Shown here piece after piece: positions 28,212-32,163 of a DNA stretch of 37,135 bases. The translations under genes and the position numbers were made by a program. The notes below the pieces were generated by a model that saw only the letters and a program-made list of their open reading frames with translations, made no database searches and was not told where the DNA came from. Source of the stretch: a virus (Duplodnaviria; Caudoviricetes); the IMG/VR virus record IMGVR_UViG_3300042923_001353, positions 1-37,135 of that record; one strand, given 5' to 3'. The first letter of the stretch is position 1. Every line of letters starts with the position of its first letter.

Positions 28212-28238
28212 AATAGTCCTCCAAAGGGGACTATTTTT
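28212..28238 (+). terminator. Intrinsic terminator after cI
   Basis: aatagtcct-ccaaag-gggactatt-ttt. Confidence 0.8.
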
Positions 28239-28315: not shown

Positions 28316-29731
28316 ATGGATAATTGCAGTAATATGAAACATATTTTGAGATATGGAACCAATGCAGAGCAGAAGTATATTGAGCAAATTAAAAATTCAT
28401 TTGATTTATTGGCTTTTAACGGAAATATGTTAGCATATACACCTGGTGCTATTGCAGGTTTTATTATGATGCATATATTAAAAAGCAAGCGTTCGAAAGG
28501 TTACTTTATTGATCCTATTACACATGCATTTCAACATGACATAAGTACTATATCTTCCTATAGTGAAAAAGAAAAGAAAATAAAAATAAAGAAATCTGTT
28601 GAAAACTTAATTGAAGCATATGGCGAACCAATACAATCAAATATTAATTCTGAAATAAGTGTATTACCCTCACATTTTAATACACCTGAATTAAAGTTGG
28701 AATTCTGTAAAAACGTTATTAATTTTCAGCTTAATACTATTATTACAGAATTAGAAAAAAAAGGATTTATGGACTATATAAATAATGCCGCTCTTGATAT
28801 AAGTAAATTGAAACCATGTTTTTTAATAGCACCCTATTTTTACTTAACTACAAAACCTACTGATTTTAAATGGTTGCCACTAAATTGTGAATTTATTAAG
28901 CTAACAAAATCAATAGCAAATGATCAAGAAGTCTATGCACAGCTTGTAGTCTCAAAGGAAATCCTTACTAATGAAAGCTTTAGAAATGAAATCTTAGATG
29001 AATATACTAAGGTTAAACCAAGTGGTGTATTATTATGGATTGATAAGTTTGATGACCATGATGCAAATATTTCAGAATTAAATAGCTTTGTAGAAATTAT
29101 TAAAAAATTTACTCAAAATGAAATCCCAATTTATAATTTGTATGGTGGTTTCTTCTCTACTATATTAACCGGATTTAAAAACGAGCTTGGATTTGAATTG
29201 AGCGGTGTTGGACATGCTCTTGAATATGGCGAGAGTCGAGCTGTAGTTCCAGTTGGAGGAGGTATACCTACAAATAAGTATTACTATTATCCCTTACATA
29301 ATCGCCTTGATTATAAGGATGCCAGTACGCTATTAAGGTCATTGGGCTATTTTTCTGTGCCTCCATCTGATGGAGCAAGAGAGTATAAGAAGAATATTTG
29401 TCATTGCCCAACTTGCATGGAAGTTATTCAAGATGATATTAATAATTTCTCGTTATTTGAAAATACTGAGTTCTACGACATTACCCTACATGGAGTAAAA
29501 CAAAAAAGAAGCTATGCAAGTCAAGATACAAAAGAGATTTGCGTATTACATTATCAGTACAACAAGCATAAAGAGTTCTTAGAGGTAGAAAAAAGAAGCC
29601 TAAATGATTTCATAAGCAGATTAGAAAAAACTAATAGCGATTATGCTCCACATGAACCTGAATTGTCTAAGCAAATTGACTATTTAAGTAATTGGTCGTC
29701 AGTTTTAAAATCTCTAGTGGGGTTGAAATAA
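28316..29731 (+). CDS. 471-aa hypothetical protein; probable TIM barrel with a TGT-like CxCxxC...H Zn site (beta-protein/TGT-like)
   Basis: RBS gagggggag; alternating beta/alpha pattern, YFIDP, IAPYF, YGESR..PVGGG.P..KYY, CHCPTC with downstream His. The fold is inferred. Confidence 0.55.
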   Translation: MDNCSNMKHILRYGTNAEQKYIEQIKNSFDLLAFNGNMLAYTPGAIAGFIMMHILKSKRSKGYFIDPITHAFQHDISTISSYSEKEKKIKIKKSVENLIEAYGEPIQSNINSEISVLPSHFNTPELKLEFCKNVINFQLNTIITELEKKGFMDYINNAALDISKLKPCFLIAPYFYLTTKPTDFKWLPLNCEFIKLTKSIANDQEVYAQLVVSKEILTNESFRNEILDEYTKVKPSGVLLWIDKFDDHDANISELNSFVEIIKKFTQNEIPIYNLYGGFFSTILTGFKNELGFELSGVGHALEYGESRAVVPVGGGIPTNKYYYYPLHNRLDYKDASTLLRSLGYFSVPPSDGAREYKKNICHCPTCMEVIQDDINNFSLFENTEFYDITLHGVKQKRSYASQDTKEICVLHYQYNKHKEFLEVEKRSLNDFISRLEKTNSDYAPHEPELSKQIDYLSNWSSVLKSLVGLK

Positions 29732-31053
29732 TGTCTAGACCAGTTAAAAAGAAGGTTTATATATTTGGTGCCGGTGCGTCAGTAGCAGCGAAGCTACCAA
29801 TTCAATCAAATATCTTGAATAACATTTTTACTTTGCAAAAACCAATTATTACAATGCCCCTTGGTTTTATTGAATCCTTTGATGAGTTTTCTGTTATGTT
29901 AATAAGTCAATATGAATTCTTTGAAAAAAGCAGACGTATACTTACAAAATTTATTATACAGACTTTTGGAGATATCCAGCTTCGTCAGAGATTCAAAGAT
30001 AAATTTGTTTCATATGATTACGATATTAACAGATATGATAACACAAATATAGAACTCAATGAAAAATGGAATCAATTTTATATTCACCTTAAAGACATTG
30101 ATATTTCTCTTGAAGATGTATTTACACTGCTTGACAAAGCATCATTATCAAAAGAATACTTTTCGCTGTATTCGGTAGCTGATATGGACAATATTCAAGA
30201 AAGCTTAAACTACTGTATAGTATATTCAATTTCTAATTCTATACATATTTCCAGCCATGTTGAATTATATGATAAAATTGCAGAGTTCCTAATAAGAAAA
30301 AGATTAAAACCTGGCTTAGAAGCTGATACCTTTTCTTTAATAACTTTAAACTGGGATACAGTATTAGATAAGTACATTTACGATAAGTGTAAGAGTAATA
30401 ACTTGATTCATCCTGAAAAACAAATTTTTCCTGATTACTGTTGTTACAATTACGATATTAATTCAGAAGTTCCATCAATTCATATAAAAGCAAAAGGTAA
30501 TTATAATATTAAACTGATGAAATTACATGGTTCAATAAATTGGTTAGTCTGCAGTAATTGTGGTCGTTTATATTCTGACTACGCTAGAAATATATCACTA
30601 CAATACAGTAACAAAGGTGAAGTGAAGTGTAAATTTTGCGAATCGTCCAGCAGAGAATATAAGCTCAGAAGACTTATTATAACCCCAACCTTTATAAAAG
30701 CTTTTAATAATCTACATTTAAAAAACGTGTGGCATAATGCTTATTTAGATTTATGTGAGGCTGATGAAATAATTTTTATTGGATATTCATTCCCTGATGC
30801 AGACTTTGAATTAAGATATTTATTAAAAAAAGCTATCAAACCTAGTGCAAAAATAAAGGTTATCCTTCACCAAAAGGACAACCCCAAGTTATATCGTTCT
30901 ATTTTAAAAGATATTAAACCCATTGCAGACAAAAATGAAACATTTTATAGAATAAACTTACCCTATAAAAGATACATTTCCTTTTTTAAAAATCATAAGG
31001 TTGAATTCTGTTACAAGGGCATTGAAAATGCATTGAATGATGGGTGGTTTTAA
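29731..31053 (+). CDS. SIR2-family protein (putative NADase) with Zn ribbon
   Basis: FGAGAS, ITLNWD, KLHGSINW, CSNC/CKFC and FIGYSFPDAD motifs; ATG overlaps the upstream stop (TAATG). Confidence 0.9.
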   Translation: MSRPVKKKVYIFGAGASVAAKLPIQSNILNNIFTLQKPIITMPLGFIESFDEFSVMLISQYEFFEKSRRILTKFIIQTFGDIQLRQRFKDKFVSYDYDINRYDNTNIELNEKWNQFYIHLKDIDISLEDVFTLLDKASLSKEYFSLYSVADMDNIQESLNYCIVYSISNSIHISSHVELYDKIAEFLIRKRLKPGLEADTFSLITLNWDTVLDKYIYDKCKSNNLIHPEKQIFPDYCCYNYDINSEVPSIHIKAKGNYNIKLMKLHGSINWLVCSNCGRLYSDYARNISLQYSNKGEVKCKFCESSSREYKLRRLIITPTFIKAFNNLHLKNVWHNAYLDLCEADEIIFIGYSFPDADFELRYLLKKAIKPSAKIKVILHQKDNPKLYRSILKDIKPIADKNETFYRINLPYKRYISFFKNHKVEFCYKGIENALNDGWF

Positions 31054-31065
31054 AAAATTAATGTA

Positions 31066-31500
31066 TTATCTCTCAAAAACTACTTTTTCAGAGATTCTAT
31101 TAATTCTATTTTTCAGACTATCGATCCATGGTTGCCATCTATCATTCAAAGACTTTGATGGTACTACTTCTATAAATGGATACTCACTTTCATTATCATA
31201 TAGTAGTAAGCCTATCCCTTGATTTTCAACTTCCTGTATTAATAGCTTTGATACTTCCTTATAAGGTTTTGGCAAGCATATATATGCTCTATCAGCTCCC
31301 AACCTATGATCCTTTGCTTGCGCAATAGCCTTTCTCCAGTCTTTTAATTTAAACTCAATACTCAAAATCTCGTTATTTTGGTCTACAAGTACCATATCAA
31401 TACACCTAGAAAGATATGGTACTTCTAATACAATTTCTTTATATAATTCATTTGATTGCAACTTGTTATAGCAGTCAAGCATCATTTCAGTTTCTGTCAT
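31066..31500 (-). CDS. Small PD-(D/E)XK nuclease-like protein
   Basis: E...EVP....ID.V.....IEFK..W.KA..QA; RBS aaggtgg overlapping the upstream stop. Confidence 0.75.
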   Translation of the reverse strand: MTETEMMLDCYNKLQSNELYKEIVLEVPYLSRCIDMVLVDQNNEILSIEFKLKDWRKAIAQAKDHRLGADRAYICLPKPYKEVSKLLIQEVENQGIGLLLYDNESEYPFIEVVPSKSLNDRWQPWIDSLKNRINRISEKVVFER

Positions 31501-31510
31501 AAAAACCACC

Positions 31511-32098
31511 TTAATTCTTCAAATACTTATCTTTTATTTTTGATTTCTCTGCACTTTCAGGATACTTTTTATAAACATATTCTATTATTGCATCAAGAGG
31601 AAGTGCGTTTATTTTGCTTTTAAACTTAGTAAGTAATTCGATCTGATCCTCTGAAAAGTTATTAATTACGTTTTCCTTAACATATTCTATTCCCTTTTCG
31701 GTAAGATAATAACTTACTTCTAAAGGATTCTCCTTTTCGCAACTCTCTGATTCTTCTCCATATCCAATATCATCGTACTTATCAAAACAATATTCAGCAG
31801 CTTCTGATTCTGACATAGGCTGTTCAAGTGTTTTCTCATTTACAAATCCTATTGCGCTGAAAAAACCAATATCATCTAATAATTCTTTTGAGAAAGGTCC
31901 ATAGTTATAAGCAAAAAACTCTGGCATATTGATAATATTAAAATTGTTAAAATATTGAACTATCTCTTTATCAAATAGATAGAACATTTTTGTAATTCTA
32001 GTCCTTCCATCTATAGGCTCATTATACTCATTGTTAATTCCCGGTAAAAATAAAAGTGTAAGCAATAAGTCTTTAGCTTTTAAATCCTTTTTATTCAT
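31511..32098 (-). CDS. SocA/Panacea (DUF4065)/YwgA-like winged-helix protein
   Basis: GRTRITKMFYL, FFAYNYGPFS.EL, Y.LTEKG and EYVYKKYP motifs; RBS aaggagg. Confidence 0.7.
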   Translation of the reverse strand: MNKKDLKAKDLLLTLLFLPGINNEYNEPIDGRTRITKMFYLFDKEIVQYFNNFNIINMPEFFAYNYGPFSKELLDDIGFFSAIGFVNEKTLEQPMSESEAAEYCFDKYDDIGYGEESESCEKENPLEVSYYLTEKGIEYVKENVINNFSEDQIELLTKFKSKINALPLDAIIEYVYKKYPESAEKSKIKDKYLKN

Positions 32099-32134: not shown

Positions 32135-32163
32135 TTGATGCGAACAAGTGTTCTGTTTATAAT
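32135..32163 (+). promoter_or_regulatory. Sigma-A promoter with a LexA box in its spacer, facing the integrase
   Basis: TTGATG (32135-32140), 17 nt, TATAAT (32158-32163); CGAACAAGTGTTCT at 32141-32154. Confidence 0.8.

What the first reader, a model, noticed from the sequence alone, without database searches (positions are those of the whole stretch)
28316..32098. Candidate new four-gene anti-phage system: TGT/beta-like Zn protein + SIR2 facing SocA/Panacea-like + PD-(D/E)XK nuclease
Seen: a visibly AT-rich 3.8-kb cassette in the cI-integrase accessory slot, insulated by the cI terminator. It has two tightly coupled gene pairs (TAATG overlap at 29729-29733; RBS overlapping the stop at about 31505-31513) converging with a 12-bp gap. 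Known: SIR2 domains are NAD+-depleting effectors in Thoeris, DSR, SIR2-HerA and short pAgo systems; Panacea/SocA domains are antitoxins; TGT-fold proteins exchange bases in tRNA or DNA (DpdA). None of the usual SIR2 partners (TIR, HerA, pAgo) is recognisable here. Inferred: a base-modification sensor or writer coupled to an NADase and a nuclease, restrained by the SocA-like protein.
Basis: partly seen in the sequence, partly recalled or inferred. Interest (0 to 1): 0.85.

Follow-up and report, generated by a model that had tools for sequence, protein, structure and literature searches.

The report
TGT-fold defence cassette with swappable killer
A prophage carries four genes that travel together across many bacteria and archaea: a fixed trio (a tRNA-transglycosylase-fold protein, a small nuclease-motif protein and an antitoxin-like protein) plus one interchangeable gene, here a sirtuin and elsewhere a membrane protein, which together likely form an untested anti-phage suicide switch distantly related to the gop-beta-cII system of satellite phage P4.

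Summary
The 471-aa protein (A) has the TGT fold (best match archaeal TGT, Z 21.2) with TGT's zinc site. By strand order it lacks two catalytic aspartates. In 60 well-flanked loci from several phyla, A travels with the PD-(D/E)XK protein C (60/60) and the Panacea/DarG-C-terminal-like protein D (59/60). The fourth gene is either SIR2 (40) or an unrelated three-helix membrane protein (20), never both. So SIR2 is a swappable effector on a three-gene core, not one fixed part of a four-gene system. Neighbours are defence genes in 16/38 loci versus 1/43 control blocks; two copies sit inside BREX operons. PADLOC has no model for A. The closest known kind is P4 gop-beta-cII and the predicted 'TIM-B' systems (TGT-like barrel, variable effector, REase). 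A does not match Beta_protein by sequence, and the near-constant Panacea partner is not described there. Most likely mechanism (inferred): A and D form a resting guard complex that keeps the effector off until infection disturbs it, and SIR2 then depletes NAD+. Verdict: new variant of a known kind, untested.

The parts
28316..29731 (+). Gene A: TGT-superfamily (beta/alpha)8 barrel with CxCxxC+H zinc site; core gene; no family model in Pfam, NCBIfam, PADLOC or PHROGs
   Evidence: AF2 model pLDDT 94; top structural matches are TGTs; conservation; family scans
29731..31053 (+). Gene B: SIR2-family protein (GAGxS, NWD, LHGS, two CxxC, GYS motifs); the swappable effector slot; predicted NADase
   Evidence: Pfam SIR2_2 above cut-off; motifs kept in 30-31 of 31 homologues; exclusive with the membrane gene
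31066..31500 (-). Gene C: small PD-(D/E)XK nuclease-motif protein (E3, D35, E49-x-K51, Q61); core gene; remote relative of the sce7726 family
   Evidence: motif residues invariant in 91 of 91; 6 of 50 members hit NF033832, best E 2.8e-8
31511..32098 (-). Gene D: winged-helix protein of the SocA/Panacea/DarG-C-terminal kind with a conserved acidic loop (about residues 90-127); core gene
   Evidence: Pfam SocA_Panacea in 13 of 51 members at E<=0.01; best structural match DarG chain of 7yk3, Z 9.0; loop net charge <= -5 in 90 of 91
28212..28235 (+). Hairpin after the cI-like gene, candidate terminator
   Evidence: folds as a 10-bp stem, -12.7 kcal/mol; not flagged by the scan
32142..32153 (.). 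GAAC-N4-GTTC LexA-like box between D and the recombinase; probably belongs to the recombinase promoter
   Evidence: only such site in the window; inside a predicted + strand promoter at 32135-32163; box consensus recalled

Best explanation
This is a conserved three-gene core (TGT-fold A, nuclease-motif C, Panacea-like D) plus one swappable gene (SIR2 here), and it likely works as a toxin-antitoxin-like anti-phage switch in which A and D are predicted to form a resting guard complex that would hold the effector off until infection disturbs it, after which SIR2 would deplete NAD+ and abort the infection. Shown: folds, motifs, co-occurrence, mutual exclusion of the two effector types, enrichment beside defence genes. 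Inferred: A acts as gatekeeper of the effector, as beta does for Gop in P4. D's acidic loop mimics nucleic acid and sits on A's nucleic-acid groove, as the DarG C-terminal domain does on DarT. A phage product competes for that contact. C cuts DNA as a second, built-in effector, which would explain why the core can stand alone.
For: Co-occurrence in 60 well-flanked loci: C 60, D 59, SIR2 40, membrane gene 20, both 0, neither 0. Four further profile-picked genomes show the same plan. Defence neighbours in 16 of 38 loci vs 1 of 43 control blocks, Fisher p 1e-5, or 3 of 43 counted generously, p 2e-4; two copies lie between brxC and downstream BREX genes. Same prophage slot in L148, L149 and L069. 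TGT fold. P4 gop-beta-cII protects against lambda and P1, and Gop is toxic without beta (PMC9122126). TIM-B is TGT-related and pairs with sirtuin, 2TM, RES and a convergent REase (bioRxiv 10.64898/2026.10.19.760177). D's best fold match is DarG, whose C-terminal domain blocks DarT by mimicking ssDNA (PMC11481870). Complex A+C+D with D as partner: weak support, score 0.50, best of 3 controls 0.01. The mark was reached by 116 of 157 solved complexes and 2 of 215 mismatches, but at 0.60 or under by only 18 of the 157 and by both mismatches; runs agree in at least 38% of contacts; partner pLDDT at least 74.
Against: No experiment exists. The direction of control (A as repressor) is borrowed from beta, and A does not match beta by sequence. 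A's many conserved polar pocket residues fit an activating enzyme equally well. The DarG match is modest (Z 9.0, rmsd 4.7, next winged-helix 7.6). In the window's clade A-B and D-C are separate convergent units, which fits two pairs. One viral locus has C-A without a detectable D (L186). The control for defence neighbours came from only 12 genomes of one phylum, in consecutive blocks.
Confidence: 0.45

Rival explanations
1. Signal model: A is an activating enzyme, normally blocked by D. On infection A, fed by C's DNA cleavage products, excises or transfers a nucleobase to make a product that switches on whichever effector is present (Kongming-like logic).
For: A constant core with an exchangeable effector is typical of signalling systems (established knowledge of CBASS and Thoeris). 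A keeps D66, H300, Y304, E306, R308 and the zinc site. In TGTs the zinc site supports nucleic-acid binding, and the protein-binding Cap10 lacks it. A+C is the deepest conserved pair, also seen in kinase-linked versions.
Against: Neither effector has a recognisable extra ligand-binding domain: B gives only SIR2 hits, and the 166-227 aa membrane proteins give no consistent family. In the nearest tested system the barrel protein is an antitoxin.
Confidence: 0.27
2. Two linked toxin-antitoxin pairs: A neutralises the effector, and Panacea-like D directly neutralises the nuclease C (or, both toxins).
For: A-B and D-C are adjacent in every complete SIR2 arrangement (ABDC, DCAB, convergent). Stand-alone Panacea domains directly neutralise diverse toxins, including membrane toxins (PMC10440598).
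Against: In the membrane-type loci the effector gene sits between D and C. The three core genes stay together across phyla with correlated divergence (Spearman 0.76-0.85), though shared ancestry alone gives such correlation.
Confidence: 0.15
3. Addiction or maintenance module of mobile elements with no anti-phage role.
For: Found in prophages, plasmids and beside recombinases; toxin-antitoxin-like parts.
Against: Strong enrichment beside R-M, BREX and Abi genes; the related gop-beta-cII system is anti-phage.
Confidence: 0.08
4. Dpd-like restriction-modification: A writes a 7-deazaguanine mark into host DNA and C cuts unmarked DNA.
For: DpdA is among A's fold matches (Z 14.5); one locus has a DpdB-like neighbour (L010).
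Against: No other gene family recurs in more than 7 of 57 loci, so there is no conserved precursor pathway. The two TGT aspartates appear absent at strands 4 and 8 (inferred). A near-constant SIR2 or membrane gene is not part of Dpd.
Confidence: 0.05

Closest known systems
P4 gop-beta-cII anti-phage system (PMC9122126; passages read)
   Same: TGT-like barrel + REase-fold gene + toxic effector in a phage accessory hotspot. REase convergent to the barrel gene, as in the window's clade; the five beta loci examined also show an adjacent REase-like gene.
   Different: A is 400-480 aa with a CxCxxC+H zinc site that the five beta proteins aligned lack; no PF14350 hit; near-constant third core gene D; effector here is SIR2.
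Predicted 'TIM-B systems' (bioRxiv 10.64898/2026.10.19.760177; section 33 read in full)
   Same: TGT-related barrel coupled to alternative effectors including a sirtuin and 2TM proteins, plus an REase; predicted negative regulation.
   Different: Defined on PF14350, which A does not match. Its REase has helical extensions and a HeH domain, while C is a bare 144-aa core. The section names no Panacea partner for TIM-B. Figure and supplement could not be seen, so inclusion of the A family there is not excluded.
sce7725/sce7726/RES operons (NCBIfam NF033831/NF033832)
   Same: C is remotely similar to sce7726; both come as adjacent pairs followed by a third gene (RES label recalled).
   Different: A does not align with sce7725 (hhalign probability 0.2%); sce7726 is about 285 aa; no D.
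Type IV CBASS Cap10 (bioRxiv 10.1101/2025.04.06.647259; passages read)
   Same: TGT fold repurposed in defence and bound to a partner protein; fold match Z 13.8.
   Different: Cap10 keeps the catalytic aspartate, lacks zinc and needs QueC-like Cap9 and a cyclase; none of these recur here.
DarG C-terminal domain / PanA (Panacea) antitoxins
   Same: Winged-helix fold with the GPF/GPY motif; acidic surface; antitoxin or sensor role.
   Different: D has no macrodomain or extra neutralising domain, sits in a three- to four-gene system, and carries a long acidic insertion.

Membership tests
TGT (deazaguanine transglycosylase) superfamily | (beta/alpha)8 barrel closer to TGTs than to other TIM barrels | tested here: met
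   archaeal TGT Z 21.2 (rmsd 3.6, 306 aligned), bacterial TGT 17.8, QTRT2 16.1, DpdA 14.5; best non-TGT barrel 13.8; Foldseek top hits TGT
TGT superfamily | C-terminal CxCxxC + His zinc site | tested here: met
   C362 375/378, C364 369/378, C367 377/378, H412 376/378; the motif is the only part hhalign aligns to a TGT
Active TGT/DpdA transglycosylases | Asp at the end of strand 3 (TGT DSGGFQ motif) | tested here: met
   D66 in IDPxTxxFQ, D in 369 of 378, E in 7; part of that set was selected with a pattern containing this residue
Active TGT/DpdA transglycosylases | Guanine-binding Asp on strand 4 and nucleophile Asp on strand 8 | tested here: inconclusive
   by strand order these positions read LIAPYF and GVGH, with no Asp; no residue-level superposition was available; conserved H300/E306 could substitute
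TIM-B / Beta_protein (PF14350) | Sequence match to PF14350 | tested here: not met
   no hit for A or 43 relatives at E<=0.05; hhalign to five beta proteins probability 2% (shallow alignment)
TIM-B systems | Barrel gene coupled to alternative effectors (sirtuin, 2TM and others) | tested here: met
   SIR2 40 vs membrane gene 20 of 60, never both
TIM-B systems | Linked REase with helical extensions and C-terminal HeH | tested here: not met
   C is linked in 60 of 60 but is a 134-150 aa core with little room for such extensions
gop-beta-cII | Effector toxic without the barrel protein; phage protection | not testable with these tools
   needs genetics
Dpd restriction-modification | DpdB/DpdC and precursor genes in the cluster | tested here: not met
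   no recurrent neighbour family beyond 7 of 57 loci; one DpdB-like neighbour in 38 loci scanned
SIR2 superfamily | GAGxS, TxNWD, HGS, GYS motifs | tested here: met
Thoeris / DSR / SIR2-HerA / SPARSA / Kongming | Cognate partner gene (TIR, HerA, pAgo, deaminase+HAM1) in the operon | tested here: not met
   the partners are A, C and D; no such PADLOC hit for them and no recurrent neighbour
SocA/Panacea (PF13274) | Profile match above cut-off | tested here: inconclusive
   23.5 bits vs cut-off 25.7 for D; 13 of 51 members at E<=0.01, best 1.3e-6; the Haloarcula homologue is annotated SocA
PD-(D/E)XK nucleases | E...D...ExK catalytic motif | tested here: met
   E3, D35, E49, K51 invariant in 91 of 91; weak hits to several clan families; fold not modelled alone

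The most novel reading that the evidence does not exclude
A is a new kind of immune enzyme: a zinc-bearing TGT-fold protein with re-wired chemistry (Asp66/His300/Glu306), held shut by a DNA-mimicking Panacea protein. On infection it works with C to turn nucleic acid into a nucleobase-derived signal or protein mark that fires any of several unrelated effectors (SIR2, membrane pore, perhaps PIN or kinase). That would define a new signalling family spanning bacteria and archaea, and would likely explain beta/cII and sce7725/6 as well.
Probability: 0.22. Interest if true: 0.9.

Novelty: new variant of a known kind. Interest (0 to 1): 0.72.

Why it matters
It defines a previously unnamed, widespread protein family (1,150 clusters at 50% identity) and a clean modular system with a fixed core and a swappable effector. 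The mechanism of gop-beta-cII has stayed open since its anti-phage role was shown. The SIR2 version gives an easy biochemical readout (NAD+) for asking what TGT-fold proteins do in immunity. It also offers a concrete test of the published hypothesis that Panacea domains are sensors rather than simple neutralisers. Cultured carriers exist (two Halanaerobium strains, Haloarcula marismortui pNG400, Arthrobacter pSI-1).

Tried and rejected
Sequence searches of A against Pfam, NCBIfam, PADLOC, PHROGs and PDB sequences gave nothing significant. A vs sce7725 and vs beta by hhalign: no alignment (shallow template alignments). Foldseek against viral structures: no clear match. No GenBank phage match. 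No longer fused forms among 864-2465 aa proteins (weak evidence), though a 669-aa kinase fusion turned up otherwise. No RNA holder was listed. The complex job scored only D. Its control with A replaced (0.00) is not a test of D-C binding, and A-SIR2 and D-SIR2 contacts were not modelled. LexA-like box as part of the system: rejected; it is upstream of D in 2 of 6 convergent loci and upstream of 2 of 94 co-oriented loci. 'Convergent layout is unique to the window': rejected; five other loci share it. Repeated effector switching is not shown: the quick tree needs 4 changes, but well-supported branches force only 1. A reverse scan with D could not be run. Ten literature searches listed no paper describing this gene set. 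Passages of PMC9503650, PMC12839542, PMC13434031 and 10.1101/2025.09.30.679545 were checked and describe other systems.
Full report
OBSERVATION. The window is a 37-kb virus record. A Clostridia genome bin holds the same DNA, identical over 13,884 bases. Between a cI-like repressor and a serine recombinase lie four intact genes: A 28316-29731 (+), B 29731-31053 (+), C 31066-31500 (-) and D 31511-32098 (-). The TAATG overlap, the 12-bp convergent gap, the ribosome-binding motif over D's stop and the low GC (29.7% vs 37-38%) are as described. The hairpin after cI exists but was not called a terminator by the scan.

WHAT THE GENES ARE. A has no significant match in four family libraries or in PDB sequences. 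Its model is confident (pLDDT 94) and matches TGT-family barrels above all other barrels: archaeal TGT Z 21.2 (rmsd 3.6, 306 aligned), bacterial TGT 17.8, QTRT2 16.1, DpdA 14.5, Cap10 13.8, best unrelated barrel 13.8. In 378 homologues the zinc ligands C362/C364/C367/H412 and pocket residues D66, Y174, W241, Y276, H300, Y304, E306 and R308 are conserved. I laid A's strand order beside the motifs of a real TGT. D66 corresponds to the DSGGFQ aspartate, but the aspartates of TGT strands 4 and 8 have no counterpart. This is inference from strand order, not a superposition; the TGT residue roles are recalled, apart from the nucleophile described. B is a SIR2 protein with intact motifs and a zinc ribbon. 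C keeps an invariant E-D-ExK-Q set in 91 of 91 sequences and is remotely like the sce7726 family (6 of 50 members). D is a winged-helix protein of the Panacea kind (13 of 51 members). Its best solved match is the DarG chain of 7yk3 (Z 9.0, rmsd 4.7, 148 aligned; next 7.6), and it carries an acidic loop in 90 of 91 sequences.

IT IS A CONSERVED, MODULAR SYSTEM. Searches with A gave 57 genome loci (one is the window's own element), the best 80 of 241 metagenome loci and 4 viral loci. Sixty of these 141 loci, excluding the window's own, had at least 1.9 kb upstream and 2.5 kb downstream. Of the 60, C was present in 60, D in 59, SIR2 in 40 and a 166-227 aa gene with one N-terminal and two C-terminal hydrophobic helices in 20. 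None had both effectors and none had neither; no locus among all 141 had both. A few SIR2 copies counted are split or interrupted (L011, L032, L036), and the metagenome set includes near-duplicates. Orders are A-B-D-C, D-C-A-B, D-TM-C-A and the convergent A-B><C-D of the window's clade, which includes two other viral records and a prophage-like contig in the same cI-adjacent slot. Profile searches of 1,300 sampled genomes found five more matches (1 of 350, 0 of 250, 0 of 400, 4 of 300, centres excluded). Four are complete core-plus-one-effector loci and one is a kinase-barrel fusion with a convergent C-like gene. Plasmids add D-TM-C-A in Arthrobacter and a bare D-C-A block in Haloarcula. The reverse tests are less tidy. 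Of 12 viral loci found with C, 3 are full cassettes, 1 is C-A without detectable D, 2 are kinase-linked and 6 are distant stand-alone genes. Of 10 found with B, 2 are cassettes and 8 are distant SIR2 genes without the core. On a quick tree of 113 A proteins the effector label needs 4 changes, but well-supported branches force only 1. The family is large: 1,150 clusters at 50% identity.

DEFENCE SETTING. I scanned the nearest neighbours of 38 genome loci (121 of 175 candidate proteins, limited by size). Sixteen loci have a defence-specific PADLOC hit (R-M, BREX, AbiE, AbiD, DarG-like, PDC), after setting aside generic kinase, ABC, HTH and polymerase hits. The same scan of 43 three-gene blocks from 12 unrelated genomes gave 1 (3 if generic hits are counted); p 1e-5 or 2e-4. 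The control is small, from one phylum and not independent. Two copies sit within BREX operons, between brxC and downstream BREX genes.

MECHANISM. I commit to a guard model (0.45; about 0.85 that it is anti-phage at all). The nearest tested system, P4 gop-beta-cII, protects against lambda and P1, and its Gop is toxic without beta (PMC9122126, passages). A phage accessory gene triggers it (10.1101/2023.04.06.535777, passages). A recent preprint places beta in the TGT family, lists sirtuin, 2TM, RES and a convergent REase among its partners, and predicts constitutive repression relieved by infection (10.64898/2026.10.19.760177, section 33 and passages). By analogy A gates the effector. The addition here is D. 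The DarG C-terminal domain blocks DarT by mimicking ssDNA (PMC11481870, passage), and Panacea domains are proposed sensors (PMC10440598, passages). A retains the zinc site that supports nucleic-acid binding in TGTs and that protein-binding Cap10 has lost (10.1101/2025.04.06.647259, passages). So D's acidic loop may occupy A's groove until a phage product competes. The one complex prediction (A+C+D, D scored) gave weak support: 0.50 against a best control of 0.01. The mark was reached by 116 of 157 solved complexes and 2 of 215 mismatches, but at 0.60 or under by only 18 of the 157 and both mismatches; runs agreed in at least 38% of contacts, and partner pLDDT was at least 74. The main rival has A as an activating enzyme that makes a base-derived signal (0.27). 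Two separate toxin-antitoxin pairs (0.15), an addiction module (0.08) and Dpd-like modification (0.05) follow.

COMPARISON AND NOVELTY. It works like gop-beta-cII/TIM-B in plan, but A is not a member by sequence. There is no PF14350 hit, no profile alignment to five beta proteins, and A has a zinc site they lack. C lacks the extensions described for that REase, and the near-constant Panacea-like partner is not named in the section I read. It is not Thoeris, DSR, SIR2-HerA, SPARSA, Kongming, type IV CBASS or Dpd by partner content. Ten searches of the open literature listed no description of this gene set. Subscription journals are largely missing from that library, PADLOC dates from 2023, and the preprint's figure and supplement could not be seen and might include this family. 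An earlier unchecked note of this scan (e1-731269) records an archaeal cassette of TGT-like, Hjc-like, Panacea and PIN genes, which would be a third effector type; I could not check it.

VERDICT. A real, widespread, modular candidate defence system; new variant of a known kind; interest 0.72.

Noticed in passing
window 32142-32153: The only GAAC-N4-GTTC (LexA-like) box in the window lies between the -35 and -10 of a predicted promoter facing the recombinase and about 45 bases upstream of D; it could put either gene under SOS control.
   Followed up: partly
L180:4741-7485; L189:4614-7325; L192:2870-5923: Kinase-linked relatives: a Ser/Thr-kinase-barrel fusion (or separate kinase and barrel-like genes) with a longer C-like REase, in prophage accessory slots; the Atlas also lists kinase-barrel clusters. 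Likely a sister system.
   Followed up: partly
L026 and L038: The four-gene cassette is inserted inside BREX operons, between brxC and pglXI/pglZ.
   Followed up: partly
L174:4006-6242 (Haloarcula marismortui pNG400): D-C-A core with no effector gene inside the block, next to an HNH gene and parA; a cultured, tractable host.
   Followed up: partly
L186:3396-6660: C-A pair without detectable D, preceded by a 290-aa gene resembling nucleoside deoxyribosyltransferase/TIR-like proteins (resemblance recalled, not tested).
   Followed up: no
L178:286-2245: A distant stand-alone D relative next to an HD-domain gene, recalling the ywfO-ywgA pair (names recalled).
   Followed up: no
L011: The record is titled Escherichia coli, but its A protein groups with Bacillota copies; possibly a mis-binned contig.
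   Followed up: no
L195, L196, L197: Stand-alone ~370-aa SIR2 genes about 30% identical to B in prophages, without A, C or D.
   Followed up: no
L183, L184, L187, L188, L190, L191: Stand-alone C-like small nuclease-motif genes among ordinary phage genes; a possible source of C.
   Followed up: no
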